Source: Paracoccus sp. (in: a-proteobacteria) (GTDB taxonomy: Bacteria; Pseudomonadota; Alphaproteobacteria; Rhodobacterales; Rhodobacteraceae). Taken from it: a DNA stretch of 64,000 bases. Shown here piece by piece: positions 13,753 to 59,256 of the stretch (position 1 is the stretch's first letter; the number at the start of each line of letters is the position of its first letter). The notes beneath the pieces were generated by a model that saw only the letters and a program-made list of their open reading frames with translations, did not search any database and was not told the DNA's origin. The DNA lies in the NCBI RefSeq assembly GCF_032007265.1, contig NZ_DALZMB010000008.1, forward strand, positions 616 to 64,615. Reading direction: 5' to 3'. Position numbers and translations under genes: made by a program.

Positions 13753-13782
13753 AAAAAGGGCGCCCTTGTGGCGCCCTTTTTC
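13753..13782 (+). terminator. Rho-independent terminator after infB
   Basis: Hairpin AAGGGCGCC-CTTGT-GGCGCCCTT followed by a T-run, about 20 nt after the infB stop. Confidence 0.8.
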
Positions 13783-14078: not shown

Positions 14079-14110
14079 TCTCCTCTCCTCTGATGTCTTA
14101 ATTTCGACAT

Positions 14111-14147
14111 AAAAAAATCAGGAAGTTAATAATGTTTCGTTAACTTC
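14111..14147 (-). terminator. Putative terminator of the argJ-mutT unit (AT-rich hairpin plus T7)
   Basis: Perfect 8-bp inverted repeat GAAGTTAA (14122-14129) / TTAACTTC (14140-14147) with a 10-nt loop. On the minus strand it is followed after 4 nt by T7 (plus-strand A7 at 14111-14117). It lies 48 nt downstream of the mutT stop. Confidence 0.45.
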
Positions 14148-14194
14148 TGCTGAGGGGTCAGATTAATTCCTCGGGATCGAGGGGGCGTGTGGCA

Positions 14195-23606: not shown

Positions 23607-23774
23607 GCTGGTCCGTCCTTTCGGTTGCCCCACTCCGACACGCCATGCCGGACATGCCGGTCTGGGGTGGTGACGCAGGACGCCTATTCGCCTGCGCCAT
23701 ACACCTATTTGTGGATAGCAATGCGCTTCTGTCAACGGGCCTAAGGCACAGTTGTTGCAAACAGTCCGCCAGCC

Positions 23775-25054: not shown

Positions 25055-25098
25055 CGGACATCCTCTGTGATCGTCGGAGAGGGAGAACTCCACGCGGG

Positions 25099-25680: not shown

Positions 25681-25683
25681 GAC

Positions 25684-26628: not shown

Positions 26629-26637
26629 ATCCGATAC

Positions 26638-30111: not shown

Positions 30112-30196
30112 TGGTGCCCAGAAGAGGACTCGAACCTCCACGCCTTGCGGCACACGGACCTGAACCGTGCGCGTCTACCAATTCCGCCACCTGGGC
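30112..30196 (-). tRNA. tRNA-Leu (anticodon CAG)
   Basis: Reverse complement reads GCCCAGGTGGCGGAATTGGTAGACGCGCACGGTTCAGGTCCGTGTGCCGCAAGGCGTGGAGGTTCGAGTCCTCTTCTGGGCACCA. It has a 7-bp acceptor stem, anticodon loop TTCAGGT, a long variable arm, a GGTTCGAGTCC T-arm and an encoded CCA. Confidence 0.95.
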
Positions 30197-45740: not shown

Positions 45741-47129
45741 TCACGTGAATCCGAAGGCCATGAAATCGCGCGCATAGACCTGACGCACGATCTTGGCCAA
45801 CCCCTCATCAGCCAAAAATTCCGGCATAACCTCGGCGGGACATTCGGGCACGGTGCCCAGACCGGCATCCGCCGCCAGCCAGCCCAGCCCGGTGTTCAGC
45901 CTGTCCTCGCGCAAGACGAAATCCGGGCTGACGAAATTGCCCATTCCTGCCAGCACATCCACCTGCGAGGCCCAGTATTGCTGGACCGGAAAGCTGGTCT
46001 GACCGTTCAGGTTGCGGCGTAAAAAGCCAAGGAAGGCTTCGAAACATTGCAGCAAAAGCGCCTGATCCATCTCGGCCAATGCGTCTTCGGCGGGCAAGGG
46101 CACACGATGGATGTCACGCAAGATCTGGCGCAGCTTTCCACGATTGCCCTCAATAACCTCGGTGAAAACCGCCCAGGCGCGATGCAGAGGGTGGCGCAGA
46201 ACCGTAAAGCTGCGGTGACCGGGATGGGCGATTTTCCATTTGCGCAAGGGCTGATGGGCAAAGTCACGCGATAGCGCGCCGCGCGCGGCAAGCCAGTCGG
46301 TGACTGTTCGCGTCGGGCCGCTGGACATCGGCAGATAAAGCACACCCGCCCCCGCCTCGCAGGCGATGACATTGCCAAGATTGGCGCCGCGCCGGGGCTC
46401 GAAATTGGGGACCTCATGTAGGGCAAAGGGGTCCATCCGGGCCAGATCGCGCTGCATCTGCGCAAAGTTGGTGACTTTTTCCGACAAGGCTCTCGGATTT
46501 TGCGGCACCTGATCCTTGGCCAGTTCGACCTTCTCCAGATCAGTGCGCCCCAACCAGTGCAGCAGGCCCGTCATAACCCCAGTATCGCGCAGATCGCTGT
46601 AGCCCAGCCAGAAAGCCGTCTGACCGGTGCGCTGCAAGCCGCTTTGGATTTTCTGCTGAAACTCGCTGATCTTGCCGTGAACACGGGTGAATTCTGCGCG
46701 ATCAAAGTGGATTGCGGCCGGAATTGGGGTTTCGGTCTCGTTCAGCTTCCACTGATTGGTCGTACGCGCCAGCTCGGTCGAGACATAGCTATCCAGCACA
46801 TTGCGAGAAAGAATGATTTTCGCGCATTCGCGATCTTGCATGATCAAATCGAAAACCCGCGGATCGTGATCGTGGAAATAACGAAAACCCGGCAGGTGAT
46901 CAGGGATCGCAAAAAGCGCATCCAGCAAGCGCTTGGGGTTCTCGTCACGCTCGGCCTGGGTGACACCGCGCAGCTCGGTCTTGTCGGGCCAGCCCATCAT
47001 ATAGGGGTTAAAGGCCTCGCCAAAGCAGGTGACGCGACGGATGCCGTTCAGCGTCGCTTCCAGGAAGTTCGAGCCCGTACGCATTTCCGCGAAGATGACA
47101 AAGCGCTTGAAAGTCTGATTCTGTGTCAC
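45741..47129 (-). CDS. Fused double sulfotransferase (NodH/Stf-like N-domain plus sulfotransferase-family-2-like C-domain)
   Basis: N-half: a PAPS 5'-phosphosulfate loop-like FAEMRTGSNFLE and RNVLDSYVS, as in NodH-type enzymes. C-half: the SFTVLRHPLHRAWAVF signature typical of Sulfotransfer_2. The GTG start at 47129 overlaps the upstream stop (GTGA). Confidence 0.7.
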   Translation of the reverse strand: MTQNQTFKRFVIFAEMRTGSNFLEATLNGIRRVTCFGEAFNPYMMGWPDKTELRGVTQAERDENPKRLLDALFAIPDHLPGFRYFHDHDPRVFDLIMQDRECAKIILSRNVLDSYVSTELARTTNQWKLNETETPIPAAIHFDRAEFTRVHGKISEFQQKIQSGLQRTGQTAFWLGYSDLRDTGVMTGLLHWLGRTDLEKVELAKDQVPQNPRALSEKVTNFAQMQRDLARMDPFALHEVPNFEPRRGANLGNVIACEAGAGVLYLPMSSGPTRTVTDWLAARGALSRDFAHQPLRKWKIAHPGHRSFTVLRHPLHRAWAVFTEVIEGNRGKLRQILRDIHRVPLPAEDALAEMDQALLLQCFEAFLGFLRRNLNGQTSFPVQQYWASQVDVLAGMGNFVSPDFVLREDRLNTGLGWLAADAGLGTVPECPAEVMPEFLADEGLAKIVRQVYARDFMAFGFT

Positions 47130-48805
47130 TGAAGCTGGTTCTTTTCTTTGGGTTCATCGACAGGGAAATCGCCCATCATCTGTGGTCGCAGGCCAGCATT
47201 GCGCAGGCGCTGGAAAAAACGTCCGATCCCGGTCAGATCTCGCGCGGCAGGTGGCGCGCCGACAAGGGCGGGATCGCCGCCCAAAGCTTGCAGCACCGAT
47301 TGCAGCGCGCCAACGGGGCGGGCGGTAAAATCGGCCAGATCCCAGGTCTGCACGCGCGCCTTTAGCCAGACCGATTGCAATGTGGCGATCTGCTCGACTT
47401 CGGTGCGCTGCAAAACCGCGGCGATGCGGCGGATATTGTCGAAGGGCATCCCCGAGGTCAAAAGCGGCACCGCCCAAGCGCCCGTAATCACAAAAATACG
47501 GGCATTGGGATCGGTGGCCATGAACCAGTTCAGCTCGACGCGGTCGCGGGGGCTGTGCTGAAATACCTGCATCCGGTGCGAGACCCGGATCAGATTGGCC
47601 AAAAAGCCGCGCGGATCCAGATCGCGCATTGCTGCGCTATCGGCCAAGGCCCCCGGCCCAACCGTAGCGCGATCAGCGAATTCGACGCGATCCTCGGCCA
47701 GGATATGGCCATGCACATCCGCATCAAGACGTTTGCCAAGCCATCTTTCGAAATCCGGATAAAGATCGGTAAAGCCGTGCAGCACGCCATAGGCGGCGCT
47801 GGTTTTACCGTTTTCACGATCTTTCAGCGGATAGCGGCTTTGCATGTAAAGGCCCGCCCGCCCAAGGTCTCGCCGCGACACCGCGCGGTTGATCAGCCGG
47901 CCCAAACGTGCGGGCTGGGGCTCAGCAGCCGAGGGCCAGACCATCACCGGGCGCGGGAAATAGGCGTAAAGCCCGCTTGCACGTGGCCAGATCTTGCGCG
48001 CGACAAAACAGCCCGATTCCTCAAGCATCTGTCGATGGTCGTCATAAAAGATATAGGGCTTTCCCTGCCCGTCGAATTTGGCCAGCGTCAGCGAACGGCT
48101 TTCGATCCGCACCGAATGGCGACGTGCCAAGGTCTGGAAATAGCTTTCATCGGGCACCCAGACCTTGGAAAAATAGCGGTCAAATTCGGCCCGGCGCGGG
48201 TCCTCCAGAATGGCGGAAATCGTCTCTCGGGTCAGGCACCACCATTGCGATCCAAGGTGCGGGACCAGCCCGTCGGGGATCTTGCGGTGCAGCTTTAGCT
48301 TGCGCTGAAGTGCCACATATTTGTCAAACAGCAGCCGTTTTCGGCGAAACGAAAAAGGAAAGCGCAGGGTGAAACGCTCTTCGTTCAACCCGCCCACAGT
48401 CCAGCCGACATCTTCGGCGGTAACGCTTTCGATGAAATCACGTTTGGGATGGCGAGACAGAAAGGCCACCAGATCCGCCACCGGACGCAGCGGCAGACAA
48501 GACCCCGAAACCAGCATGACATGGGTGACATCGTCAAAGCGCTCCAGCAGCAGGCTGGCGGCGTCCTGAGTTGCCTCGACCAGCTCGAACATGCCCCATT
48601 CACAGGGCCTGCGGCGGCAAAAGACCACATCCGGCAGATCGGCAAGGTCAGAGTGCATTTTCTGGACATCGACCTCGGGGGCGCGCGCGTCGATATGCAC
48701 CGCAACCGCCGCACCGCCGTCAGCCCAGATCCGCACCATTCGGGCGGCCAGATGCAGTTCGTCGTGACACAAGATCACCACGCCCATCCTGACGCGCATG
48801 CTCAT
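47126..48805 (-). CDS. GT14-like (core-2/I-branching type) glycosyltransferase with a large C-terminal domain of unknown function
   Basis: Branch-domain hallmarks in order: VVILCHDE...AVAVHIDARAP, MLVSGSCLPLRP, GSQWWCLTRE, PDESYFQTL. About 290 further residues I cannot assign. ATG 48805 overlaps the upstream stop (ATGA). Confidence 0.7.
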   Translation of the reverse strand: MSMRVRMGVVILCHDELHLAARMVRIWADGGAAVAVHIDARAPEVDVQKMHSDLADLPDVVFCRRRPCEWGMFELVEATQDAASLLLERFDDVTHVMLVSGSCLPLRPVADLVAFLSRHPKRDFIESVTAEDVGWTVGGLNEERFTLRFPFSFRRKRLLFDKYVALQRKLKLHRKIPDGLVPHLGSQWWCLTRETISAILEDPRRAEFDRYFSKVWVPDESYFQTLARRHSVRIESRSLTLAKFDGQGKPYIFYDDHRQMLEESGCFVARKIWPRASGLYAYFPRPVMVWPSAAEPQPARLGRLINRAVSRRDLGRAGLYMQSRYPLKDRENGKTSAAYGVLHGFTDLYPDFERWLGKRLDADVHGHILAEDRVEFADRATVGPGALADSAAMRDLDPRGFLANLIRVSHRMQVFQHSPRDRVELNWFMATDPNARIFVITGAWAVPLLTSGMPFDNIRRIAAVLQRTEVEQIATLQSVWLKARVQTWDLADFTARPVGALQSVLQALGGDPALVGAPPAARDLTGIGRFFQRLRNAGLRPQMMGDFPVDEPKEKNQLQ

Positions 48806-49827
48806 GCCCAATTCCCTTTCGAGATCAGCCCCAGATCTTCCAACTGGCGCCAATCATGCAATTCCCGCGAATAGTCGCACCACAGATCGACATCCTCCTG
48901 CAGGCCCGACTGATAGGCGCGATATTCCTGACTATTGGCATAGTGCTGCCCGCGATCCAGCTCTTCGGCGGATTTTTCGACGAAAGTGGACAGGAACTTG
49001 GCGTGCAGCAAGCACCCCGAGGCCTTTTCGCCACCATGTTCATCGTAAACCAGGTTCAGCGACCTTGGCAAAAGCATGTGGGTCGAGCTGGCATAGGCAT
49101 AAGACTTTTCCCAGCGCACAAGCGGGATCTTGTTCAGCGCCGGACCCTTTTCCGGCTCATCGGGGAAAAACACCCGCGCGCGCGGACCGCCCTGAATCCA
49201 CAGATTGCCGAATTCGTTATTCTTGCGGATCGCATAATTGGCCGGATCGAACCAACGCGCGATCTCAAAAGGATCTTGCCCTTCTTTATAGGGCTGCGCG
49301 GCAATCGGCCCGCGCGGATACATATCCAGCAGCATCGATGAAAATGAACGGATGGCCGAGGCGTCCAGCCAATCGGTCAAGGCGCGCAGCGGACGGGTGT
49401 CGCAATGGGGATAGACCAGAAACTCATCGGGATCGACAGTCAGGCACCAATGCCCCGCGCCATAACGGCGCAGCAGCCAATTCAGCCAATCCATGCCAAA
49501 GCGCGATTCTTTGTAGCTGGCGGTGGTCAGCCACAGCGACACATCCGGCTGTGCCAGCATGAAATCCCGGCTGCCATCATCCGAGTTGTTGTCCACCACA
49601 AAGAAGTGCTGAACCCCCATTTTCCGGTAATATTCCAGAAAATACGGCAGCCGGACCCGTTCATTTCGCAAGGTTACGAAAAGCAGAATATTGCCGCGCC
49701 TGATCTTGGCGGTTTGATCCGACAAAACCCGCAACCGCCGCCGACGCCTGATCGCGCGCGCCAGCAACCACTGCCGCATCGTGCGCAAGCGGATTCTGCG
49801 TTTCAACTGCCTGATGATCTTCGACAA
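48802..49827 (-). CDS. Glycosyltransferase family 2-like (Glyco_tranf_2_4 type)
   Basis: ILLFVTLRNERVRLPYFLEYYRKMGVQHFFVVDNNSDDGS and the DxD-like TVDPDEF. Confidence 0.75.
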   Translation of the reverse strand: MSKIIRQLKRRIRLRTMRQWLLARAIRRRRRLRVLSDQTAKIRRGNILLFVTLRNERVRLPYFLEYYRKMGVQHFFVVDNNSDDGSRDFMLAQPDVSLWLTTASYKESRFGMDWLNWLLRRYGAGHWCLTVDPDEFLVYPHCDTRPLRALTDWLDASAIRSFSSMLLDMYPRGPIAAQPYKEGQDPFEIARWFDPANYAIRKNNEFGNLWIQGGPRARVFFPDEPEKGPALNKIPLVRWEKSYAYASSTHMLLPRSLNLVYDEHGGEKASGCLLHAKFLSTFVEKSAEELDRGQHYANSQEYRAYQSGLQEDVDLWCDYSRELHDWRQLEDLGLISKGNWA

Positions 49828-49856
49828 ACCGGCCCCTTCCCGAGCTTAGGAATAGA

Positions 49857-51086
49857 CTAAACCTGACGTTGCAGCAATGCGGCCTCGACCACGGCAAAGT
49901 GGCCGGGCCAATCGGGAACCTGCAAGGGCGGCAAACGTCTGGGGGGTGCATCGGCAAGGCGCAAGATCGCCTTGGCCCAAGCCGCCGCATCGTCGGGGTC
50001 CAGATACTCGGCCCCCTCTGCCAGCAGCTCTTGGGTAGAGGGAAGTGGAGTTGCCAGAACCGGGATACCACGTGCCGCGGCCTCGGTCAGCGGCAGACCA
50101 AAGCCTTCGGCGCGGCTTGGCATCAAAAGCGCCTGGCTTTGCATCATCAATGCAGCGACTGCCCCATCCTTCAGCCCCGAAAGCTCGTGGATGGGATCCG
50201 ATGGCGCGAGATTGTCCAGCCGTGCAAAAGTGTCGTGGTTTTCCCAGCCGCGCCGGCCAATGATGAACAATTGTGGCAGATCGGCGGCTGGTCTTTGTCG
50301 GGCCATGATCGCCCAAGCATCCAACAGCACAGCATGGTTCTTGCGCGGCTCGATGGTGCCAAGGCTGATGAAAAAGGGCCGATCCAGCGCGAGACCCGCG
50401 GGGATTTGCGAGGGGTCGGCTGCGCTTAGGCTGGTCCCGATCGGTGCAACGACAACCGGCACGCGGCGATGGATGGCCAAACGCTTGCGCCACAGCTTGA
50501 TCTGAACTGCGCTGGCTTGTGAAATCGTCACAATCAGATCCGACAATCCCGCCGCCTGCAAAAAGCGATCCCGGAATTTCTGGCTTTGGCCGCTCCGGGT
50601 AAATTCGGGGTAATCCAGCGGGATCACGTCATGGATCAACACGACCCTTTGTAAGGCCGACAGACCGGCAAAGACCTCATTGCGCCAATTCGAGTGGCCA
50701 AGGTTCAGATAGGCTGCCCCCTGCCCCAGACGGGCCTGCGCGATCTGGCCCAGCCGCTCGACGCGCCCGCGCGTGAAAGCGATCGCACGACTGCGAAGCT
50801 GTTGGGCGGCGCGATCAGCCAGCGACACTTTGCCAGTCAGTCGCGCCAAAAGGCCGGGCTGGGGCAGATCGCCAAGCTCACCCGCGCTCCAACGCAGAAT
50901 GTCGGCGCCGGCTTCGGCAGGCAAAAGCGCCTGCCCGCCCGCAACCCGGCATAACAGCAGATGCGGACGCGACTGAAGGTGCAAAAGCCATTCAAGTTCA
51001 ACGCGGTCGATCCCCGTCAGGGGACCTCCGCCTAGGCGTGAGACGAGGCGCGAGACATCCAGCAGGAACCCGCGCTCAGCGCTCAT
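49857..51086 (-). CDS. Glycosyltransferase family 4 (GT-B, Glycos_transf_1)
   Basis: E-x7-E region PSRAEGFGLPLTEAAARGIPVL. The start is ambiguous (ATG 51086, 51095 or 51116). I chose 51086 (MSAERGFLLDVSRL); every option overlaps the galE 3' end. Confidence 0.8.
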   Translation of the reverse strand: MSAERGFLLDVSRLVSRLGGGPLTGIDRVELEWLLHLQSRPHLLLCRVAGGQALLPAEAGADILRWSAGELGDLPQPGLLARLTGKVSLADRAAQQLRSRAIAFTRGRVERLGQIAQARLGQGAAYLNLGHSNWRNEVFAGLSALQRVVLIHDVIPLDYPEFTRSGQSQKFRDRFLQAAGLSDLIVTISQASAVQIKLWRKRLAIHRRVPVVVAPIGTSLSAADPSQIPAGLALDRPFFISLGTIEPRKNHAVLLDAWAIMARQRPAADLPQLFIIGRRGWENHDTFARLDNLAPSDPIHELSGLKDGAVAALMMQSQALLMPSRAEGFGLPLTEAAARGIPVLATPLPSTQELLAEGAEYLDPDDAAAWAKAILRLADAPPRRLPPLQVPDWPGHFAVVEAALLQRQV

Positions 51087-52071
51087 ATCCACCATTCTGG
51101 TGCCAGCGCCATGCATCGGTCACCATTTGATCCATGGTTGAACGACGCGGATCCCAACCCAGCAGCGTCATCGCCTTTTCACTTCCCGAGACCAGCTTGA
51201 CCGCATCGCCCGCGCGGCGCGGACCCTCGACGATCGGCACCGGACGGTTGGTGACGTGATGAGATTGGTTAATGACCTCGCGCACGGAAAAGCCATTGCC
51301 CGTGCCAAGGCAGAACACTTCGATGCCCGGTCCGACTTTTCCAGCCTGCAAATGCTTCAGCCCAAGGACATGCGCATCGACCAGATCCATGACATGGACA
51401 TAGTCGCGGATACATGTGCCATCGGGCGTCGGGTAATCCGTGCCGAAAATCGTCAACTCGCCGCGCTTGCCGTCAACTGCGTCAAGAATAAGCGGGATCA
51501 GATGGGTTTCGGGCTGATGGAATTCGCCAACCTCGCCCTCGGGATCAGCGCCCGCAACGTTGAAGTAGCGAAACACCACCGAACGCAGGCCATCCGAGGC
51601 ACCGAAATCCTTGAGCATATCCTCGATGGCGCGCTTAGAGGCACCATAGGCGTTCAAGGGCGTCTGGGCCGTATTTTCATCCAGCACAACGCCATCATGA
51701 TCGCCATAAGTCGCGCAGGTCGAGGAAAAGACGAAATCGCGGATCCCTGCCGCGATCACGGCCTCGATCAGCACCAGCGAGGCCGAGACGTTGCCGCGCC
51801 AGTATTTGCCCGGCTCGCGCATGGCTTCGCCAACCTGGCTAAGCGCGGCGAAATGCATCACGGCAACGGGGCGATGCTTGGCCAAAACTTCGTCCAGTCG
51901 TGCGCGATCACTTAGATCGCCCTGCTCGAACGGGCCGAATTTGACCGCATCCTGCCAGCCTGTGCATAGGTTATCATAAGTGACGGGCTCAAAGCCCGCC
52001 GCTTTCAATGCTTTACAAGCGTGCGAGCCGATATAGCCCGCGCCACCCGTGACCAAAACCCGGTCTGCCAT
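51076..52071 (-). CDS. galE: UDP-glucose 4-epimerase
   Basis: VLVTGGAGYIGSH Rossmann motif and the YGASK catalytic motif. Confidence 0.93.
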   Translation of the reverse strand: MADRVLVTGGAGYIGSHACKALKAAGFEPVTYDNLCTGWQDAVKFGPFEQGDLSDRARLDEVLAKHRPVAVMHFAALSQVGEAMREPGKYWRGNVSASLVLIEAVIAAGIRDFVFSSTCATYGDHDGVVLDENTAQTPLNAYGASKRAIEDMLKDFGASDGLRSVVFRYFNVAGADPEGEVGEFHQPETHLIPLILDAVDGKRGELTIFGTDYPTPDGTCIRDYVHVMDLVDAHVLGLKHLQAGKVGPGIEVFCLGTGNGFSVREVINQSHHVTNRPVPIVEGPRRAGDAVKLVSGSEKAMTLLGWDPRRSTMDQMVTDAWRWHQNGGYER

Positions 52072-52083
52072 GTGTCGAAACCC

Positions 52084-52974
52084 TTACTCTGCCGCTTTGC
52101 GGATCGCAGCCAGATCGTTCAGGTAATCACCGAACTCGTCTTTCAGCTCATCGCGCGCCAGACCAAAGGCCACCGTCGCCTGCAAGAAGCCCGCCTTCGA
52201 GCCGCAATCGAAACGCTGGCCACGGAAGCGCAGGCCAAAGACATCGCGCCCCTCTTCAATCTCGTCAGCGATTGCGTCGGTCAGCTGGATTTCACCACCC
52301 GAGCCCTGACGCAGCTTGTTCAGGTTCTGCATCACGGTGGGCGCAAGGATATAGCGGCCGATCACAGCAAGGTTCGAGGGCGGGTTTGACTGCGGCTTTT
52401 CAACCATGCCTTTGGCGCGCACGATAGCGCCCATATCTTCGGCGATGTCGAGAACGCCATAGGATTTGGTCTTTTCAAGAGCCACTTCCATGGTCGCAAC
52501 CATGCTACCGCCGGTCTCATTATAGGCTTCGATCATTTGCTGCAGGCAGGGCGGCTCGCCCATGATCACGTCATCGGTCAGGATCACGGCAAAAGGCTCG
52601 TCGGCGACAAGGCGACGCGCGCACCAGACGGCATGACCCAACCCCAGCGCCTTGTGCTGGCGGATATAGGCAATCGCGCCCGATTCCATATTGGTCGAGC
52701 GCAGGGTCTCCAGCAGATCGGTCTTGCCAGCTTTCTTGAGGTTGGATTCCAGCTCGTGGGCGTGGTCGAAATAATCTTCCAGCGCACCCTTGCCGCGCGA
52801 GGTCACGAAGATGAATTCAGTGATGCCAGCGGCGCGGGCCTCGTCGATCGCATATTGGATCAGCGGGCGGTCAACCAAAGTCATAATTTCTTTCGGGATA
52901 CTTTTCGTTGCCGGCAGAAAACGAGTGCCCAGCCCTGCGACCGGGAAAATAGCCTTGGTGACCTTACGCGTCAT
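52084..52974 (-). CDS. galU: UTP--glucose-1-phosphate uridylyltransferase
   Basis: AIFPVAGLGTRFLPATKSIPKEIM N-terminal signature. AGGAG SD. Confidence 0.93.
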   Translation of the reverse strand: MTRKVTKAIFPVAGLGTRFLPATKSIPKEIMTLVDRPLIQYAIDEARAAGITEFIFVTSRGKGALEDYFDHAHELESNLKKAGKTDLLETLRSTNMESGAIAYIRQHKALGLGHAVWCARRLVADEPFAVILTDDVIMGEPPCLQQMIEAYNETGGSMVATMEVALEKTKSYGVLDIAEDMGAIVRAKGMVEKPQSNPPSNLAVIGRYILAPTVMQNLNKLRQGSGGEIQLTDAIADEIEEGRDVFGLRFRGQRFDCGSKAGFLQATVAFGLARDELKDEFGDYLNDLAAIRKAAE

Positions 52975-53111
52975 AATCTCACTCCTGCGCCCTATCGCCT
53001 GACTGCAATAGAGTTAATTTTTTCGTGCTTTATCACTGAACATTACGTCATGTCAGTGAAGAGTTATCGTATCTGTACATATTCCTGATCTGTCTGAAAA
53101 TCAGGTCAAAG

Positions 53112-54416
53112 TTAATCCGCAATATCTTTTCGGCAGAATGCCGCATGAATAGGCATATTCCATCGCCGAGTGCCAGCCAGATTGGCCTGCTCCGACCCAA
53201 TATGTCGATGCTTTAAATCGTTAAAAACGCCGGATTTTTGCTCCCACCAGCCACCCTCGGCCAGTTTCAGCCGTGCAGGCAAGCGCGAGGGGGTCCAAAG
53301 CGCCAAATAGGTGATTCGCCCCTCGGCCACCGCCTGTGCCGCCTGACGACGCAGGCGGGCAGCCTGCCAATGCCATCCCGACAAATAGCAATGCGGTTGA
53401 TCGTCCGGTCCCGCCGCTTTCGGGTCTAGCCAGGCCAACAGCGGGGACTGGCTGGGTGCGATGGGCTCAGATGGCGGATCGGGCAGATCCGTTTCAAGAC
53501 CCTGATCAATGCCGCGCTTGAGCCCCGCCAGCAAAGGCCCGACCCGAAACGGGTCAAGTCGCCCCGACACCATCAGCCGCAACAATCGCTTGCGCTGAGA
53601 TACAATCAGCCCCGCCGTGGCATCCGCAAGCAAAGCGGGATTGCCGTGGCGTCTGGCAAAGATCGCGGCCGAGCGACCAACCTGCGTCAGATCAGATGGC
53701 ACACCCGACTGCGCGCGAACCGGGCCTGCCGCTGCGCCGTGGATCACTTCGGCCTGCGGCACGATCGCGGTCAGTCCATCGGGAAAATGCTGCGCAAGAC
53801 GCATATTCACGTCGCTTTCATCCAGATGATAGCGAAAGGCCGGATCAAAGCCGCCGATCTGGCGCAACGAGGCGCTGCGAAAGGCACAATTGGTGCCAAT
53901 CGTGCTGACCGGAGCGCCGTCTTTTGCGGGGCATTTATAAATGCCCGTGTCCGAATTCAGCCCGGTCGCCACACCCTCGACCGGGATAGTCGTGCCCGCC
54001 GCCGTGATACGCTCGGCCCGCGCCTGCCAGCCAAAGCCGTCTGGACCCCGGGTATAGCCCGTTGCGGCGATGACCTGTGGATCGCTGAATGGTGCTGAAA
54101 TCCTCTCGGCCCAGCCCGGCAGGGCCAGCGCGTCATCATCGATGAAAGCGATGACCTCGCCGGATGCGACGGCGATGCCGGCGTTCCGCGCCGCCGAAAT
54201 ATTGGCCTCGTCAAAGGGAACGCGCTTGATCGCCAGGTCAGGACGCAGATCCAGCGAGGCCGGATCTGTAACAAGAATGATTTCCGTTCGGGCACGCCGT
54301 TGGGCGGCCAGGGCCATCAGGCAAAAGCCCAGATGGCCGCGGCGCAGGCGCGACACGACGATAATGCTTAACGAAATCGGGCCCGCGCCTTGGGCAGATG
54401 CCCCGCTATCGGTCAA
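53112..54416 (-). CDS. Glycosyltransferase family 2 with an unassigned C-terminal half
   Basis: GT-A features ISLSIIVVSRLR, ARNAGIAVASGEVIAFIDDD and NCAFR. The track ORF's upstream part overlaps kdsB. I place the start at TTG 54416, which overlaps the kdsB stop (TTGA). There is no in-frame ATG between that point and the GT-A core. Confidence 0.7.
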   Translation of the reverse strand: MTDSGASAQGAGPISLSIIVVSRLRRGHLGFCLMALAAQRRARTEIILVTDPASLDLRPDLAIKRVPFDEANISAARNAGIAVASGEVIAFIDDDALALPGWAERISAPFSDPQVIAATGYTRGPDGFGWQARAERITAAGTTIPVEGVATGLNSDTGIYKCPAKDGAPVSTIGTNCAFRSASLRQIGGFDPAFRYHLDESDVNMRLAQHFPDGLTAIVPQAEVIHGAAAGPVRAQSGVPSDLTQVGRSAAIFARRHGNPALLADATAGLIVSQRKRLLRLMVSGRLDPFRVGPLLAGLKRGIDQGLETDLPDPPSEPIAPSQSPLLAWLDPKAAGPDDQPHCYLSGWHWQAARLRRQAAQAVAEGRITYLALWTPSRLPARLKLAEGGWWEQKSGVFNDLKHRHIGSEQANLAGTRRWNMPIHAAFCRKDIAD

Positions 54417-55213
54417 TCCGCCCCCATACGCAGCATCATCTCTTCGATTTTGGCGACATCCGAGGGGTTGTTCAGCTCCCAAAACTCGCGGCCGCGAGCT
54501 TCGACCTCGACGCAAAGCACCTTACGGCCCCGTTCCAGAAAACGCAGCTGCTCTAGCCCTTCAAGAACCTCGGTGCGGCCCTCGCCCCAGCCCGGATATT
54601 CTGCCAATGCAGCGGGACGATAAGCATAGACGCCGACATGGTGAAAAACCGGCGTTGGCGCATCGGCAGCAAAATCGCCCGCTGCAAAGGGGATCACCTC
54701 TTTCGAGAAATACATCCCGCGCATGTCATGGCCAAAGACTGCCGTCGTGCCGCCAACCCGCCCAGCCGTGCGATCCGCAATCAGATCGGCGCGCATCTGA
54801 CCGTTGCAGCGCAGCACGGGCGTGGCCAGGTCGGCCGAAGCATCGCCTCGCAAGCCCTGGACCAGATCCTCGACGAACCAGGCAGGCGTCAAAGGGGCGT
54901 CGCCCTGCAGGTTCACCACAATCTCGGGGTTGATGCCCAGATTGCTGATGGCTTCGGCGCAACGCTCGGTGCCATTGCGTGCCTCGGGCGAGGTCATCAC
55001 GACCTCGGCGCCAAATGCCTCGGCATGATCGCGAATGCGCGCGTCATCGGTCGCGACCAGAACCCGGTCAATGCCCGAGACCGACTTGGCCGCCTGCCAG
55101 CTGCGACGGATCAGGCTAAGGGCCTGCCCCGAGGCGCCTTTCAGCTCGACCAAGGGCTTGCCCGGATAGCGCGAGGATTGATAGCGCGCTGGAATGACAA
55201 TCACGACCGACAT
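54413..55213 (-). CDS. kdsB: 3-deoxy-manno-octulosonate cytidylyltransferase (CMP-Kdo synthetase)
   Basis: VVIVIPARYQSSRYPGKPL N-terminal signature, then ATDD, NLQGDAP. Confidence 0.9.
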   Translation of the reverse strand: MSVVIVIPARYQSSRYPGKPLVELKGASGQALSLIRRSWQAAKSVSGIDRVLVATDDARIRDHAEAFGAEVVMTSPEARNGTERCAEAISNLGINPEIVVNLQGDAPLTPAWFVEDLVQGLRGDASADLATPVLRCNGQMRADLIADRTAGRVGGTTAVFGHDMRGMYFSKEVIPFAAGDFAADAPTPVFHHVGVYAYRPAALAEYPGWGEGRTEVLEGLEQLRFLERGRKVLCVEVEARGREFWELNNPSDVAKIEEMMLRMGAD

Positions 55214-55216
55214 GAC

Positions 55217-56014
55217 TTAGCCCTTCACCAGCAAGACACCCGGGGTGAAGGCAATGAAAAACGGATTTTCAAAGCCCGGCTTGCCATAAAGCAAAGGCGT
55301 GTGATCATCGAAACGCACGACCTTGCCGCCCGCCCCGCGCAAGACCGCATCGCCCGCTGCCGTATCCCATTCCATGGTCCGGCCCAGACGGGGGTAAAGA
55401 TCCGCCTCGCCCGTCGCGACCAGACAGAACTTCAGCGACGATCCGGCCGAGGTCATGTCCTTGACGCCATAGCGCCCGATATAGTCGTCAGTCGCGGCAT
55501 CGCGATGGGATTTCGAAGCCACCACCATCAGCGCGCGATTGTCGGGCGTTGTGTTCACGCCAATCGGGTGGGTCTGCCCCGGGGTCGGACCAAAGGGGCC
55601 AACCTCTTCGACGGCGCCACCATCGGCCAAAGTATAGAACAGGCGCCCCTTGGCCGGGGCATAAACCACGCCCAGAACCGGGATGCCATCACGGACATAA
55701 GCGATATTGACCGTGAAATCGCCACGGCGCTGCACGAATTCCTTGGTCCCGTCCAGCGGGTCAACGATCAGGAAAGTGCTGACATTTTGACCATGGGTCG
55801 CGGCCTGCTCTTCGGTTACCAGCGGAATATCGGGAAATGCAGCACGCAAACCGGCAGAGATCAGCGCATCGGCGGCCTCATCTGCCTCGGTGACCGGAGA
55901 GGAATCGGATTTTGCGCGTACGTCGAAATCTTCTGCGCCGTAGATCTGCATGATCTTTTCGCCTGCCAGCAGGGCAAGACGCCGGAATTCGGCAACCATC
56001 GGTTCAAATTGCAT
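55217..56014 (-). CDS. cysQ: 3'(2'),5'-bisphosphate nucleotidase (PAP phosphatase)
   Basis: Inositol-monophosphatase fold motifs SPVTEADE, FLIVDPLDGTKEF and EWDTAAGDAVL. Confidence 0.85.
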   Translation of the reverse strand: MQFEPMVAEFRRLALLAGEKIMQIYGAEDFDVRAKSDSSPVTEADEAADALISAGLRAAFPDIPLVTEEQAATHGQNVSTFLIVDPLDGTKEFVQRRGDFTVNIAYVRDGIPVLGVVYAPAKGRLFYTLADGGAVEEVGPFGPTPGQTHPIGVNTTPDNRALMVVASKSHRDAATDDYIGRYGVKDMTSAGSSLKFCLVATGEADLYPRLGRTMEWDTAAGDAVLRGAGGKVVRFDDHTPLLYGKPGFENPFFIAFTPGVLLVKG

Positions 56015-56141
56015 TCATTTTCCTTTCCTGCCGCAGGCATAATCGCCCACACCAGATTGAACCCGCGTTTCATGTCACTTATGGTCCGAGGAACTGCTTT
56101 CGGCAAGCGCCGGGCACCCGAAGGGACACTGGGCGCAGCAC

Positions 56142-56963
56142 ATGTTCACCGCACGGCGAAATCGAAACCTGCTAGAGGCCGCGTTCACGACGCTGGCCCT
56201 GATTTATCACGTCACAGTCTATGACCTGCGCAAGGAACACCGCAACGCGGTCATCGGGCTGGTGATGACAGTGCTGCAATCCATGCTGTTCGTCATGGGT
56301 TTCCTGGGCATGTATATGATCATCGGGGTCAAACACTCTCCCATTCGCGGCGACTTTATTATCTATATCATGTCGGGGATTTTCCTCTTCATGGTCCATT
56401 CGCAGACCGCTGGCGCGGTATCGGGTGCGGGTAGTTCGGTCGATGCGATGGTCAAACACGGCCCGATGAATACCGCCGTGATGATCTGCGGGGCGGCGCT
56501 GGCTGTTCTTTATCGCCAGACTTTCGCGATTTTCGTGATCCTTGCGGGATATAACGCCCTTTTCGCGCCCGTCACGCTTGAGGATCCGATCTCCTGCTAT
56601 GCCATGGTGCTGCTGGCCTGGTTCTATGGCATCTGTATCGGGCTTTTGTTTCTATGCGTGCGCATGTGGTGGCCCCAGGGCGGCAAGGTCGTCACCCAGC
56701 TTTACCAACGCATCAATATGATCGCCTCGGGCAAAATGTTTGTGGCCAATACTTTACCGACATTCATGTTGCACATGTTCGCCTGGAACCCGCTGTTTCA
56801 CATGATCGATCAGGTGCGTGGCTATGCCTTTATCAATTACACACCGCATAACAGCTCGCTCAGCTATGCGATCTATATGACGCTTGCGATGATGATGATC
56901 GGGTTGATGGCGGAATTTGTGACCCGCAATGCGGTCTCGTTGAGCTGGAACTCGGGGCGCTAG
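56142..56963 (+). CDS. ABC-2 type transporter permease (KpsM/Wzm-like)
   Basis: 273 aa, about six TM helices, with an N-terminal cytoplasmic amphipathic segment ending in the basic DLRKEHRN stretch, as in polysaccharide-export ABC-2 permeases. No ATPase gene is adjacent. Confidence 0.75.
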   Translation: MFTARRNRNLLEAAFTTLALIYHVTVYDLRKEHRNAVIGLVMTVLQSMLFVMGFLGMYMIIGVKHSPIRGDFIIYIMSGIFLFMVHSQTAGAVSGAGSSVDAMVKHGPMNTAVMICGAALAVLYRQTFAIFVILAGYNALFAPVTLEDPISCYAMVLLAWFYGICIGLLFLCVRMWWPQGGKVVTQLYQRINMIASGKMFVANTLPTFMLHMFAWNPLFHMIDQVRGYAFINYTPHNSSLSYAIYMTLAMMMIGLMAEFVTRNAVSLSWNSGR

Positions 56964-57145: not shown

Positions 57146-57256
57146 GAGACGTGAAACCGGTCCCGGATTAAACTCCGCCCGGCAAATTTAGGGATAGGCG
57201 GCTGAAGGCCGGAATGGATTCAGCGGCCGCAACATCGCCGTAAGAGAGGAAATTGA

Positions 57257-59176: not shown

Positions 59177-59256
59177 TCGCGCGTAACCTGATAGGCCGGC
59201 CCGTCGCAAACCCGCGCGGGCCGGTCCAGTCATAAAAGGCCCGGGACGAATACCAC

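What the first reader, a model, noticed from the sequence alone, without database searches (positions are those of the whole stretch)
45741..56963. Tightly coupled glycan locus that combines sulfotransferases, a eukaryote-type GT14, Kdo activation and PAP recycling, with no recognisable export or polymerase genes
The minus strand carries two compact blocks. The first is cysQ-kdsB-GT2 (3-nt gap, then a TTGA overlap). After a 137-bp AT-rich gap comes galU-galE-GT4-GT2-GT14-like-double sulfotransferase, with one start overlapping the galE end, a 29-nt gap, then ATGA and GTGA overlaps. A lone ABC-2 permease is divergent from cysQ. Together the genes supply UDP-Glc, UDP-Gal and CMP-Kdo, four glycosyltransferases, two PAPS-type sulfotransferase domains, and the phosphatase that removes the sulfotransferase by-product PAP. 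I infer a pathway for a sulfated Gal/HexNAc-type surface glycan or LPS/CPS decoration. The window contains no Wzx/Wzy/Wza, KpsC/S/T/E/D or Wzt partner, so assembly and export are unexplained. Few bacterial carbohydrate sulfation pathways are characterised (NodH, LpsS, mycobacterial Stf).
Basis: partly seen in the sequence, partly recalled or inferred. Interest (0 to 1): 0.75.

Follow-up and report, generated by a model that had tools for sequence, protein, structure and literature searches.

The report
Conserved Rhodobacterales sulfated-glycan gene cluster
This is the Paracoccus copy of an uncharacterised gene cluster, shared by hundreds of Rhodobacterales species, that most likely builds a sulfated cell-envelope sugar chain inside the cell, using one working sulfate-adding domain and probably two degenerate copies of that fold.

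Summary
All ten genes, their order and every junction (3-nt gap, TTGA, 137-bp 40% GC spacer, galE/GT4 overlap, 29-nt gap, ATGA, GTGA) are as described, and profile searches confirm cysQ, kdsB, GT2, galU, galE, GT4, Glyco_tranf_2_4 and GT14+DUF5927.

- The cluster is not a Paracoccus oddity. It is syntenic across Rhodobacterales: at least 594 species carry the sulfotransferase, and cysQ and the divergent permease are present in 62 of 65 full-length loci.
- Only the N-terminal half of the "double sulfotransferase" keeps the PAPS motifs (invariant MRTGSN, R109, S117) and the glutamate that is essential in its closest solved relative, Stam10. The C-terminal Sulfotransfer_2-like half has lost them.
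- DUF5927 is probably a third, degenerate sulfotransferase-like domain.
- All the enzymes lack membrane segments. The only membrane protein is a weakly KpsM-like ABC-2 permease with no ATPase beside it.
- In other genera the cluster abuts kdsD-lptCAB.

Best reading: a sulfated Glc/Gal-containing envelope glycan, probably LPS-linked, is assembled in the cytoplasm and CysQ removes the PAP by-product. The product and its export route are inferred, not shown. I found no paper that characterises the cluster.

The parts
56142..56963 (+). ABC-2-type permease, weakly KpsM/VexB-like, divergent from cysQ; about six hydrophobic segments and no ATPase gene beside it
   Evidence: NCBIfam gives KpsM E = 6e-10 and VexB E = 1e-9, both far below their cutoffs. 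The best PDB match is 8tsh_C 'transport permease protein', E = 0.016, collinear over residues 71-262. Homologues are named 'ABC-type polysaccharide/polyol phosphate export permease' and some carry PF01061. The gene is present next to cysQ in 62 of 65 loci.
56706..56858 (-). Match to Rfam RF02645 (Ruegeria cis2 sRNA), antisense to the 3' third of the permease gene
   Evidence: The match scores 94 bits against a gathering score of 50, and it sits at the same place in 7 of 7 other loci tested. In R. pomeroyi, cis2 is antisense to SPO0040 'ABC transporter, permease' and was validated by RT-qPCR (PMC4809877). Many pairs are non-canonical, so the score mainly reflects conservation of the coding sequence.
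55217..56014 (-). cysQ, 3'(2'),5'-bisphosphate nucleotidase (PAP phosphatase); first gene of the upstream block
   Evidence: TIGR01331 scores 269 bits (cutoff 229) and Inositol_P gives E = 3e-48. Orthologues are 68-89% identical and syntenic in 62 of 65 loci.
54413..55213 (-). kdsB, CMP-Kdo synthetase; 3 nt after cysQ
   Evidence: NF003950 scores 340 bits (cutoff 234). The gene is in the cluster in 29 of 30 Paracoccus loci but only 22 of 35 loci from other genera.
53112..54416 (-). GT2 glycosyltransferase (434 aa from the TTG that overlaps the kdsB stop) with an unassigned C-terminal region of about 170 aa; a variable member
   Evidence: Glycos_transf_2 gives E = 5e-12. The C-terminal 179 aa have no Pfam hit. 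The gene is present in 11 of 30 Paracoccus and 22 of 35 other loci, and in Paracoccus it occurs in the same loci as GT4.
52975..53111 (.). AT-rich 137-bp spacer that separates the cysQ-kdsB-GT2 block from the galU...sulfotransferase block; probably holds an internal promoter (inferred)
   Evidence: GC is 40.1% against 59.5% for the locus; the sequence is. The consensus promoter and terminator scan found nothing above chance.
52084..52974 (-). galU, UTP-glucose-1-phosphate uridylyltransferase
   Evidence: TIGR01099 gives E = 1e-95 (320 bits, cutoff 327). The gene is present in 65 of 65 loci.
51076..52071 (-). galE, UDP-glucose 4-epimerase
   Evidence: TIGR01179 scores 395 bits (cutoff 262). The gene is present in 30 of 30 Paracoccus and 22 of 35 other loci.
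49857..51116 (-). GT4 (GT-B, retaining-type) glycosyltransferase whose start overlaps the galE end; a variable member
   Evidence: Glycos_transf_1 gives E = 5e-21. The nearest solved relatives are MshA and PimA-type GT4 enzymes. The gene is present in 11 of 30 Paracoccus and 25 of 35 other loci. Two loci without it (L010, L067) were examined, and both carry a second Glyco_tranf_2_4 paralogue at that position.
48802..49827 (-). Glyco_tranf_2_4 (PF13704) glycosyltransferase; the most conserved glycosyltransferase of the cluster
   Evidence: PF13704 gives E = 1e-34. Orthologues are 64-91% identical and present in 65 of 65 loci. No solved relative was found by sequence. The gene call on identical contigs starts at 49779 and gives 325 aa.
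47936..48805 (-). GT14 (Branch) GT-A catalytic domain of the 559-aa protein; soluble, with no membrane anchor
   Evidence: Branch gives E = 2e-19. The AF2 model has mean pLDDT 79. Foldseek top hits are human xylosyltransferase-1 6eje (E = 1e-12) and C2GnT-L 3otk/2gak (E = 1e-10). No TM segment was found.
47129..47923 (-). DUF5927 domain of the same protein; probably a degenerate NodH-like sulfotransferase-fold domain without PAPS-binding residues (tentative)
   Evidence: DUF5927 gives E = 1e-103. A DUF5927 HMM hits the sulfotransferase N-domains of about 20 orthologues in the same register: 7 hits at E < 0.01 and 20 at E < 0.1, against 0-1 in reversed or shuffled controls. A Pfam DUF5927 cross-hit on P0161 residues 6-102 has E = 0.027. 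hhalign gives E = 0.008 but probability 5%. The order of strands and helices parallels the N-domain. There was no hit to Stam10.
46425..47129 (-). N-terminal NodH/Stam10-type PAPS sulfotransferase domain (residues 1-235); predicted to be the active one
   Evidence: PDB 9vki 'LPS sulfotransferase NodH' matches at E = 9e-6 with the single sequence and 1e-15 with the profile. M16-R-T-G-S-N21 is invariant or nearly so, and R109, S117 and E38 are invariant in 44 diverse homologues. E38 aligns with Stam10 E34, which is essential by mutagenesis (PMC13291958). The AF2 model has pLDDT 92. Foldseek returns 3-OST, TPST and Stf0.
45744..46397 (-). C-terminal Sulfotransfer_2-like domain (residues 245-462) with degenerate PAPS motifs; predicted non-catalytic
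   Evidence: PF03567 hits 22 of 44 homologues, always from profile position about 61 onward, and the residues covered lie in the C-terminal half. The P-loop position is I/L/V/M instead of Lys. R312 is kept in only 26 of 44 sequences, and the 3'-PB Ser position varies.

Best explanation
This is the Paracoccus version of an ancient, vertically inherited Rhodobacterales gene cluster for a conserved, sulfated envelope glycan.

**Proposed mechanism**
1. GalU and GalE supply UDP-Glc and UDP-Gal.
2. Soluble glycosyltransferases build a short glycan, or a polymer of a short repeat, on the cytoplasmic face of the inner membrane. The invariant pair is Glyco_tranf_2_4 and the GT14 enzyme. GT4 and GT2 are an optional extra set.
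3. The N-terminal NodH/Stam10-type domain of the 462-aa protein transfers sulfate from PAPS to a sugar hydroxyl of the assembled glycan.
4. CysQ, the first gene of the cluster, hydrolyses the inhibitory by-product PAP.
5. The C-terminal Sulfotransfer_2-like domain, and probably DUF5927 on the GT14 protein, are catalytically dead sulfotransferase-fold modules. I infer that they bind the acceptor or hold the GT14 enzyme and the sulfotransferase together.

**Destination of the product**
- Most likely the product is LPS-linked, either as core extension or as a conserved 'common-antigen-like' chain: about 0.45.
- It would leave the cytoplasm on lipid A-core through MsbA/Lpt, or through the conserved KpsM-like ABC-2 permease working with an ATPase encoded elsewhere.
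- A Kdo-lipid-anchored capsule-type product is the main alternative: about 0.3.

**Shown versus inferred**
- Shown: gene identities, operon-like coupling, order-wide synteny, intact versus degenerate motifs, and the absence of TM segments in the enzymes.
- Inferred: sulfation itself, the acceptor, the roles of the degenerate domains, and the export route.
For: - **Gene identities and junctions:**
- **Distribution and synteny:**
  - At least 594 GTDB species encode the two-domain sulfotransferase.
  - In 65 loci with a full upstream flank, galU and GT2_4 are present in 65, GT14 in 64, and cysQ and the permease in 62.
  - The same cluster surrounds a homologue that is only 29% identical.
- **N-domain:**
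  - It matches PDB 9vki (Stam10) at E = 1e-15 with the profile.
  - MRTGSN is invariant or nearly so, and R109, S117 and E38 are invariant.
  - Stam10 is a demonstrated PAPS-dependent oligosaccharide O-sulfotransferase in which E34, the equivalent of E38, is essential (PMC13291958).
  - The model has pLDDT 92 and gives sulfotransferase fold matches.
- **C-domain degeneracy:**
- **DUF5927 similarity to the N-domain, above controls:**
- **GT14 fold:**
- **Topology:** the enzymes have no TM segments and the permease has about six.
- **LPS context:**
  - kdsB sits in the operon.
  - In 41 of 44 non-Paracoccus loci the sulfotransferase gene converges on ptsN-hpf-lptB-lptA-(lptC)-(kdsD).
  - The window has no phosphoglycosyl transferase, Wzx/Wzy or Kps machinery.
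- **Coupling of GT14 and sulfotransferase:** their genes overlap by GTGA, and in one Paracoccus halophilus assembly they lie in a single 1056-aa frame.
Against: - No chemistry is available. I found no report of a conserved sulfated LPS or capsule component in Rhodobacterales. The one sulfated O-antigen found in the family (Poseidonocella sedimentorum, GlcA2S3Ac; PMC9912281) is a single-species report.
- PAPS synthesis genes (cysC, cysNC) are not in the window and could not be searched genome-wide.
- If the product were LPS core, the conserved permease would have no role. If the product is exported by the permease, the missing ATPase and, for a Kps-type route, KpsC/S/E/D are unexplained.
- cysQ and kdsB are housekeeping genes in many bacteria, so their position could be conserved synteny without functional coupling.
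- In three Shimia genomes a Wza-like export protein sits upstream of galU. This favours a secreted polysaccharide over LPS core.
- The DUF5927 assignment rests on weak scores: hhalign probability is 5% and there was no hit to Stam10.
Confidence: 0.6

Rival explanations
1. The cluster makes a capsule-type product. A sulfated polysaccharide is built on a phosphatidylglycerol-oligo-Kdo anchor, as in group 2 Kps systems, and is exported by the KpsM-like permease. KdsB plays the role of KpsU. KpsT, KpsC/S and KpsE/D are encoded elsewhere.
For: - The permease's only family and structure matches are to KpsM, VexB and 8tsh_C.
- kdsB lies two genes from the permease.
- All the glycosyltransferases are soluble, and there is no Wzy or phosphoglycosyl transferase.
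- In three Shimia genomes a Wza/KpsD-like Poly_export+SLBB gene lies directly upstream of galU.
Against: - The KpsM matches are very weak: 39 bits against a cutoff of 300, and E = 0.016.
- No ATPase lies next to the permease in any of about 60 loci, whereas kpsM and kpsT are normally adjacent.
- The window has no Capsule_synth (KpsC/S) or KpsE.
- kdsB is missing from the cluster in 13 of 35 non-Paracoccus loci.
- Capsule loci usually vary between strains, whereas this one is conserved across the order.
Confidence: 0.3
2. The product is not an envelope polymer. It is a small sulfated glycoside, glycolipid or O-glycosylated protein made by two or three glycosyltransferases. GT14 would act like the related peptide O-xylosyltransferases, and the product would be released through the permease.
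For: - Only two glycosyltransferases are invariant.
- The top structural match of the GT14 domain is human xylosyltransferase-1.
- UniRef names some orthologues 'peptide O-xylosyltransferase'.
- The closest solved sulfotransferase, Stam10, acts on a soluble oligosaccharide natural product.
Against: - GT14 fold similarity does not discriminate between acceptors; C2GnT scores almost as well.
- kdsB and the neighbouring lpt/kdsD genes point to the envelope.
- The database names are automatic.
Confidence: 0.1
3. There is no dedicated sulfation pathway. cysQ, kdsB, galU and galE are housekeeping genes that happen to be syntenic with an LPS-core glycosyltransferase set. The 462-aa protein is inactive or acts on an unrelated substrate.
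For: - cysQ also clears PAP made by phosphopantetheinyl transferases (established biochemistry).
- The whole chromosomal region, from dnaK to the lpt genes and gltBD, is syntenic across the order, so conservation of neighbours alone is weak evidence.
- Two of the three sulfotransferase-like domains are degenerate.
Against: - The N-domain keeps every canonical PAPS-binding and catalytic residue in 44 diverse sequences, which implies selection for activity.
- The sulfotransferase is translationally coupled to the GT14 gene through a GTGA overlap, and the two lie in one 1056-aa frame in one assembly.
- cysQ stays at the head of the cluster even where kdsB, GT2, GT4 or galE are lost.
Confidence: 0.1

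Closest known systems
Stam10/Sam10 (PDB 9VKI), fucose-2-O-sulfotransferase of saccharomicin biosynthesis; deposited as 'LPS sulfotransferase NodH'
   Same: - It is the closest solved relative of the N-terminal domain (profile E = 1e-15).
- The 5'-PSB and 3'-PB motifs are shared.
- The essential Glu is shared (E34 in Stam10, E38 here).
- It acts late, on an already assembled oligosaccharide, and is PAPS-dependent (PMC13291958).
   Different: - It is a single-domain actinomycete enzyme from a natural-product cluster.
- Stam10 H37, Q87 and H155 correspond here to N41, H88 and a non-conserved position, so the acceptor differs.
- It has no second sulfotransferase-like domain and no GT14 partner.
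Rhizobial carbohydrate sulfation: NodH (Nod factor), LpsS (LPS sulfation in Sinorhizobium meliloti) and NodPQ for PAPS supply
   Same: - These are alphaproteobacterial PAPS-dependent O-sulfation systems acting on a surface or secreted glycan.
- Database names for the orthologues ('LPS sulfotransferase NodH', 'nodulation protein NodH') derive from this family.
   Different: - I did not compare the sequence with LpsS or NodH directly here; the resemblance rests on annotation and on my own knowledge.
- Those enzymes are single-domain.
- To my knowledge they are not embedded in a cysQ-galU-GT14 operon or paired with degenerate sulfotransferase domains.
Group 2 capsule system of E. coli (kpsFEDUCS/kpsMT) and the KpsMT-KpsE structures (8TSH series)
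   Same: - An ABC-2 permease with weak KpsM similarity.
- A CMP-Kdo synthetase in the cluster, comparable to KpsU.
- Soluble glycosyltransferases and no Wzy.
   Different: - No KpsT, KpsC/S, KpsE or KpsD is in the window or the conserved cluster.
- The permease scores far below the family cutoff.
- The cluster is conserved across the order rather than being serotype-specific.
ABC-transporter-dependent conserved O-polysaccharides, such as the Pseudomonas aeruginosa common polysaccharide antigen (wzm/wzt plus soluble GTs)
   Same: - A species- or clade-wide conserved glycan.
- Assembly by a few soluble glycosyltransferases in the cytoplasm.
- An ABC-2 permease.
- An initiating enzyme encoded elsewhere (analogy from my own knowledge).
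   Different: - wzt is always adjacent to wzm there, whereas here the ATPase is missing.
- No sulfation is known there.
- Ligation to lipid A-core is untested here.
Eukaryotic GT14 enzymes (C2GnT-L, xylosyltransferase-1)
   Same: - The GT-A fold matches (Foldseek E = 1e-12 to 1e-10).
- The Pfam Branch domain scores above its cutoff.
- The invariant D219-E220 and R270-K271 motifs resemble the metal-independent catalytic set of C2GnT-L (from memory, not aligned here).
   Different: - The bacterial protein is soluble and cytoplasmic, with no type II membrane anchor.
- It carries DUF5927 at its C-terminus, not the Xylo_C domain of XT1.
- Donor and acceptor are unknown.

Membership tests
PAPS-dependent sulfotransferase, NodH/Stam10 type (N-terminal domain, residues 1-235) | Sulfotransferase alpha/beta fold | tested here: met
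   The AF2 model has pLDDT 91.7. Foldseek top hits are 3-OST-3, TPST and Stf0, with probability 0.99-1.0 and E = 1e-3 to 1e-2 for the whole two-domain model. The profile matches 9vki at E = 1e-15.
PAPS-dependent sulfotransferase, NodH/Stam10 type (N-terminal domain, residues 1-235) | 5'-phosphosulfate-binding loop after strand 1 (basic residue-x-G-S/T) | tested here: met
   M16-R17-T18-G19-S20-N21 is kept in 41-44 of 44 diverse homologues and follows strand 9-13.
PAPS-dependent sulfotransferase, NodH/Stam10 type (N-terminal domain, residues 1-235) | 3'-phosphate-binding motif (Arg at the end of a strand, Ser eight residues later) | tested here: met
   R109 and S117 are invariant in 44 of 44 sequences.
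PAPS-dependent sulfotransferase, NodH/Stam10 type (N-terminal domain, residues 1-235) | Catalytic or acceptor-activating residue equivalent to Stam10 E34 | tested here: met
   E38 is invariant and aligns with chain residue E54, which is E34 in the paper's numbering. E34A abolishes Stam10 activity (PMC13291958).
PAPS-dependent sulfotransferase, NodH/Stam10 type (N-terminal domain, residues 1-235) | Sulfate transfer from PAPS to a defined acceptor | not testable with these tools
   This needs an enzyme assay or 35S labelling.
Sulfotransfer_2 (PF03567), C-terminal domain, residues 245-462 | Profile match at or above the gathering score | tested here: inconclusive
   The window protein has no hit at E <= 0.1. 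Of 44 homologues, 22 hit. In the ten checked individually, the hits above the 22-bit cutoff score 22.5-31.7 bits. All cover only profile positions from about 61 to 250.
Sulfotransfer_2 (PF03567), C-terminal domain, residues 245-462 | 5'-PSB Lys and Ser/Thr | tested here: not met
   Position 268 is I/L/V/M in 43 of 44 sequences. No Ser or Thr is conserved at positions 269-273.
Sulfotransfer_2 (PF03567), C-terminal domain, residues 245-462 | 3'-PB Arg...Ser | tested here: not met
   R312 is kept in 26 of 44 sequences. Position 320 is A/R/S/D/E. Only the H313-P314 and R317 framework is conserved.
GT14 (Pfam Branch) | Profile match above the gathering score, and a GT-A fold like C2GnT/XT1 | tested here: met
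   Branch scores 70.4 bits against a cutoff of 23.4. Foldseek gives 6eje at E = 9.5e-13 and 3otk at E = 8.6e-11.
GT14 (Pfam Branch) | Metal-independent catalytic set (Glu base, Arg/Lys in place of DxD) | tested here: inconclusive
   D219, E220, R270 and K271 are invariant in 36 orthologues. Their equivalence to C2GnT-L E320, R378 and K401 is from memory and was not checked by structural alignment.
GT14 (Pfam Branch) | Type II membrane anchor and lumenal location (the 'eukaryote-type' aspect) | tested here: not met
   No hydrophobic segment reaches the threshold; the maximum 19-residue hydropathy is 1.53.
CysQ PAP phosphatase | Equivalog model above its cutoff | tested here: met
   TIGR01331 scores 269.4 bits against a cutoff of 228.8.
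Group 2 (KpsMT-type) capsule export system | KpsM permease | tested here: inconclusive
   NF050053 scores 39 bits against a cutoff of 300. The 8tsh_C match has E = 0.016.
Group 2 (KpsMT-type) capsule export system | Adjacent KpsT ATPase | tested here: not met
   Only 293 bp separate the permease from dnaK. In the loci whose flank reaches beyond the permease, dnaK is the next gene.
Group 2 (KpsMT-type) capsule export system | KpsC/KpsS beta-Kdo transferases and KpsE/KpsD | tested here: not met
   None was found among the ORFs scanned: nearly all candidates of 200 aa or more in the window, plus several shorter ones. The rest of the genome could not be searched.
LPS core / LPS-linked glycan locus | Genomic association with Kdo and LPS genes | tested here: met
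   kdsB lies in the operon. In 41 of 44 non-Paracoccus loci the cluster abuts ptsN-hpf-lptB-lptA-(lptC)-(kdsD). In this window, lptA, lptB and kdsD lie at 23.8-26.6 kb.
LPS core / LPS-linked glycan locus | The product is attached to lipid A-Kdo | not testable with these tools
   This needs LPS chemistry on wild type and mutants.

The most novel reading that the evidence does not exclude
Nearly all Rhodobacterales, including the abundant marine roseobacters, carry a previously unrecognised 'common' sulfated envelope glycoconjugate. It would be made by a dedicated complex in which one active NodH-type sulfotransferase domain is flanked by two pseudo-sulfotransferase domains, one of them fused to a cytoplasmic GT14 enzyme. 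It would be exported by an orphan KpsM-like permease that works without a cognate adjacent ATPase. That would be a new architecture for bacterial glycan sulfation and possibly a new export arrangement.
Probability: 0.25. Interest if true: 0.8.

Novelty: new variant of a known kind. Interest (0 to 1): 0.55.

Why it matters
Few bacterial carbohydrate sulfation pathways have been characterised, and none is known to be a core trait of a whole order. Rhodobacterales include the roseobacters, which dominate algal and particle surfaces in the sea, as well as model organisms such as Paracoccus, Rhodobacter and Ruegeria.

A conserved sulfated surface glycan could bear on several things:
- surface charge;
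- attachment to algae;
- recognition by phages and gene transfer agents;
- outer-membrane stability;
- marine sulfur and carbon budgets.

The cluster also gives a first functional lead for DUF5927. It offers a tractable case of pseudo-enzyme domains that accompany an active sulfotransferase. Orthologues exist in genetically tractable strains (R. pomeroyi SPO0035 is the GT14 gene and SPO0040 the permease), so the question can be tested directly.

Tried and rejected
- **Direct Pfam and NCBIfam scans.** The 462-aa protein gave no hit. Its assignment had to come from PDB sequence search, homologue scans and structure prediction.
- **Literature.** Ten full-text searches found no paper that characterises the cluster.
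  - Topics covered: NodH and LPS sulfotransferase, Paracoccus sulfated polysaccharide, DUF5927, Rhodobacterales sulfotransferase and cysQ, model-species names, SPO0032-SPO0041, and 9VKI.
  - The only relevant hits were incidental mentions of SPO0035 and SPO0040, plus the Stam10 paper.
  - The roseobacter phage-resistance paper concerns other genes.
- **DUF5927 as a sulfotransferase fold.**
  - hhalign gave only 5% probability.
  - The DUF5927 HMM does not hit Stam10.
  - Foldseek on the whole GT14 model lists only GT-A hits.
  - The claim therefore stays tentative, resting on same-register HMM hits above reversed and shuffled controls.
- **Promoter and terminator scan.** The locus gave counts at or below chance.
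- **PDB sequence searches.** For GT2_4, GT2 and GT4 they gave nothing informative about the acceptor.
- **Considered and rejected.**
  - A horizontally acquired island. GC is uniform and synteny is order-wide.
  - A strain-specific O-antigen or capsule locus. The conservation is too deep.
  - The sulfonolipid (SAL) pathway. SPO0035 was only a comparative-genomics bystander there, and salA is the responsible gene.
- **Not possible here.** I could not search the rest of the genome for cysC/cysNC, kpsT/wzt, kpsCSED or waaL.

Full report
**1. Observation**

The minus strand between 45741 and 56014 carries nine genes in two compact blocks, and one divergent gene lies at 56142-56963.
- cysQ TAA, 3 nt, then the kdsB ATG;
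- the kdsB stop overlapping a TTG start (TTGA);
- a 137-nt spacer at 40.1% GC, against 59.5% for the locus;
- GT4 start codons overlapping the galE end;
- a 29-nt gap before the TTG start of GT2_4;
- ATGA and GTGA overlaps at the last two junctions.

Profile searches gave these scores.

| Gene | Model | Score |
|---|---|---|
| cysQ | TIGR01331 | 269 bits (cutoff 229) |
| kdsB | NF003950 | 340 bits (cutoff 234) |
| galE | TIGR01179 | 395 bits (cutoff 262) |
| galU | TIGR01099 | E = 1e-95, just under cutoff |
| GT2 | Glycos_transf_2 | E = 5e-12 |
| GT4 | Glycos_transf_1 | E = 5e-21 |
| GT2_4 | Glyco_tranf_2_4 | E = 1e-34 |
| GT14 protein | Branch / DUF5927 | E = 2e-19 / E = 1e-103 |

The 462-aa protein and the permease have no Pfam hit of their own.

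The rest of the window is housekeeping. It includes nusA/infB, secA, hpf-lptB-lptA, kdsD, uppP, gltBD, mtgA, queG, an EamA transporter, dnaKJ, radC and petABC. There is no Wzx, Wzy, Wza, KpsCSTED or Wzt, and no PAPS-synthesis gene.

**2. The sulfotransferase**

*N-terminal domain*
- Residues 6-135 match PDB 9vki ('LPS sulfotransferase NodH') at E = 9e-6 with the single sequence. A profile of 44 diverse homologues matches at E = 1e-15.
- 9VKI is Stam10. It is a homologue of Sam10, the PAPS-dependent fucose-2-O-sulfotransferase that acts late on the saccharomicin oligosaccharide.
- In Stam10, alanine substitution of E34, H37, Q87 or H155 abolishes activity. S17 and H155 were likewise shown to be essential through the corresponding Sam10 mutants (PMC13291958).
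- In the family alignment the N-domain has a nearly invariant M16-R-T-G-S-N21 loop after strand 1 (5'-PSB). R109 and S117 (3'-PB) are invariant, and so is E38, which aligns with Stam10 E34.
- The AlphaFold model is confident (pLDDT 91.7). Foldseek returns heparan sulfate 3-O-sulfotransferases, tyrosylprotein sulfotransferases and Stf0.

*C-terminal domain*
- It is related to Sulfotransfer_2. Of 44 homologues, 22 hit PF03567, some above the gathering score.
- The matches always begin at about profile position 61, after the P-loop.
- The P-loop Lys position is I/L/V/M. R312 is kept in only 26 of 44 sequences. The 3'-PB Ser position is variable.

I conclude that one domain is active and one is degenerate.

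**3. The GT14 protein**

The GT-A domain is confirmed structurally. Foldseek gives human xylosyltransferase-1 at E = 1e-12 and C2GnT-L at E = 1e-10. Unlike its eukaryotic relatives, the protein has no membrane anchor.

DUF5927 looks like a third sulfotransferase-fold module. The evidence for this:
- An HMM built from 71 DUF5927 sequences hits the N-domains of about 20 sulfotransferase orthologues in one register (HMM positions 58-143 against residues 20-104).
- That gives 7 hits at E < 0.01 and 20 at E < 0.1, against 0-1 in reversed or shuffled controls.
- Pfam's own DUF5927 model weakly hits one N-domain.
- The order of strands and helices is the same.
- The positions equivalent to the PAPS motifs are not basic, Ser or Thr.

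The evidence against:
- hhalign probability is low.
- Stam10 is not hit.

This assignment is therefore tentative.

**4. Distribution and synteny**

- The two-domain sulfotransferase forms a family of at least 251 clusters at 50% identity that match at E <= 1e-30, most over nearly the full length.
- It occurs in at least 594 GTDB species, and the 80 loci fetched are essentially all Rhodobacterales.
- tblastn of the window's proteins against those loci covered 65 loci with a full upstream flank.

| Gene | Loci with the gene (of 65) | Identity to the window protein |
|---|---|---|
| galU | 65 | 70-98% |
| GT2_4 | 65 | 64-91% |
| GT14-DUF5927 | 64 | 50-83% |
| cysQ | 62 | 68-89% |
| permease | 62 | 44-78% |

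- kdsB, galE, GT2 and GT4 are variable. In Paracoccus, GT2 and GT4 occur in the same loci. Two loci that lack them (L010, L067) were examined, and both carry a second Glyco_tranf_2_4 paralogue.
- A homologue only 29% identical still lies in the same cluster.
- In 41 of 44 non-Paracoccus loci the sulfotransferase gene converges on ptsN-hpf-lptB-lptA-(lptC)-(kdsD)-rnd. In this window that block lies about 20 kb away on the same strand, so a rearrangement has occurred in Paracoccus.
- In three Shimia genomes a Wza-like Poly_export+SLBB gene and a CapD-like gene replace the cysQ-kdsB-permease end.

**5. Mechanism**

*Shown*
- The enzymes are soluble.
- The cluster supplies UDP-Glc and UDP-Gal, and usually CMP-Kdo.
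- It has two invariant and two optional glycosyltransferases.
- It has one sulfotransferase domain with intact PAPS and catalytic residues.
- The PAP phosphatase sits at its head.

*Inferred*
- A glycan is assembled on the cytoplasmic side and O-sulfated there, because PAPS is cytoplasmic, and PAP is cleared by CysQ.
- The degenerate domains bind the acceptor or tether the GT14 enzyme to the sulfotransferase. Their genes overlap by GTGA, and in one Paracoccus halophilus assembly they lie in a single 1056-aa frame.

*Destination: the case for an LPS-linked product*
- There is no phosphoglycosyl transferase, flippase, polymerase or Kps machinery.
- kdsB lies in the operon.
- The ancestral neighbours are kdsD and lptCAB.
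- Conservation across the order is very deep.

*Destination: the case for a capsule-type, ABC-dependent product*
- The permease is conserved and weakly KpsM/VexB-like.
- Shimia genomes have an OPX-type export gene beside the cluster.

Neither reading explains the missing ATPase. My split is about 0.45 LPS-linked, 0.3 capsule-type and 0.25 other.

**6. Comparison with the known**

- The N-domain passes every testable membership criterion for a NodH/Stam10-type PAPS sulfotransferase.
- The C-domain fails the motif criteria for an active Sulfotransfer_2 enzyme.
- The GT14 domain is a family member by profile and fold, but it lacks the eukaryotic membrane topology.
- The cluster fails most criteria for a Kps system.

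Orthologues are annotated automatically ('LPS sulfotransferase NodH', 'beta-1,6-N-acetylglucosaminyltransferase', 'ABC-type polysaccharide/polyol phosphate export permease'). Ten full-text searches found no experimental work on the cluster. What the literature does hold:
- R. pomeroyi SPO0035 (the GT14 gene) as a bystander in a comparative-genomics table (PMC8319176);
- SPO0040 (the permease) as the target of the antisense sRNA cis2 (PMC4809877);
- a sulfated O-antigen (GlcA2S3Ac) in one member of the family, Poseidonocella sedimentorum (PMC9912281), which shows that glycan sulfation occurs in this family.

**7. Verdict**

  - there is one active sulfotransferase domain, not two;
  - the link to Kdo is uncertain;
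  - the cluster is order-wide rather than a Paracoccus peculiarity.
- It is a new variant of a known kind of system: PAPS-dependent bacterial glycan sulfation.
- The interest is moderate to good, because the product is unknown, the cluster is nearly universal in an ecologically important order, and the question can be tested directly in model strains.

Noticed in passing
window 56706-56858 (-): There is an Rfam RF02645 'Ruegeria cis2 sRNA' match (94 bits) antisense to the 3' third of the ABC-2 permease gene. It lies at the same position in 7 of 7 other Rhodobacterales loci tested. In R. pomeroyi, cis2 is an RT-qPCR-validated antisense RNA to SPO0040. Many model pairs are non-canonical here, so the hit may mostly reflect conservation of the coding sequence.
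   Followed up: partly
window 57188-59233 (-): A 681-aa ORF antisense to dnaK matches PF10712 'NAD-specific glutamate dehydrogenase' at E = 8e-176. This is the well-known ORF on the opposite strand of hsp70 genes, and it is probably not a real gene here. Its GC3 was below the coding-like threshold used, whereas the dnaK frame passed.
   Followed up: no
L040-L083 at about 11400-16000; window 23025-27252 (-): In 41 of 44 non-Paracoccus loci the sulfotransferase gene is followed convergently by ptsN-hpf-lptB-lptA-(lptC)-(kdsD)-rnd. In this window the same block lies about 20 kb away on the same strand as the glycan cluster. This implies an inversion or rearrangement in the Paracoccus lineage.
   Followed up: partly
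L061 549-3916, L064, L079 (Shimia spp.): A Wza-like export protein (Poly_export + SLBB) and a CapD/WbpM-like Polysacc_synt_2 protein sit directly upstream of galU, where other genomes have cysQ-kdsB-permease.
   Followed up: partly
L010 5870-7279 (+), L067 5992-7017 (+): These two loci lack GT2 and GT4, and both carry a second Glyco_tranf_2_4 paralogue between galE and the conserved GT2_4 gene. This suggests two structural variants of the glycan.
   Followed up: partly
L007 8222-11392 (+) (Paracoccus halophilus JCM 14014, NZ_JRKN01000005.1): The GT14-DUF5927 and sulfotransferase genes lie in one uninterrupted 1056-aa reading frame. This could be a real fusion or an assembly indel, and that was not resolved. 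A protein named for the same species (P0023) is 464 aa.
   Followed up: no
R. pomeroyi SPO0035 (literature, PMC8319176): The GT14 orthologue appears in a list of orthologous groups compiled by comparing SAL-aminolipid-producing roseobacters with the non-producers Dinoroseobacter shibae and Stappia stellulata. If the list means 'present in producers, absent from non-producers', D. shibae may naturally lack the cluster and could serve as a control.
   Followed up: no
window 30115-30196 (-): There is a tRNA gene here (Rfam RF00005, 49 bits), between the MFS transporter gene and the GMC oxidoreductase gene.
   Followed up: no
P0121 (826 aa, representative library): The closest 50%-cluster representative of the sulfotransferase is 826 aa. 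It matches the query over its first 460 residues, so it carries an extra C-terminal region of about 360 aa of unknown nature.
   Followed up: no
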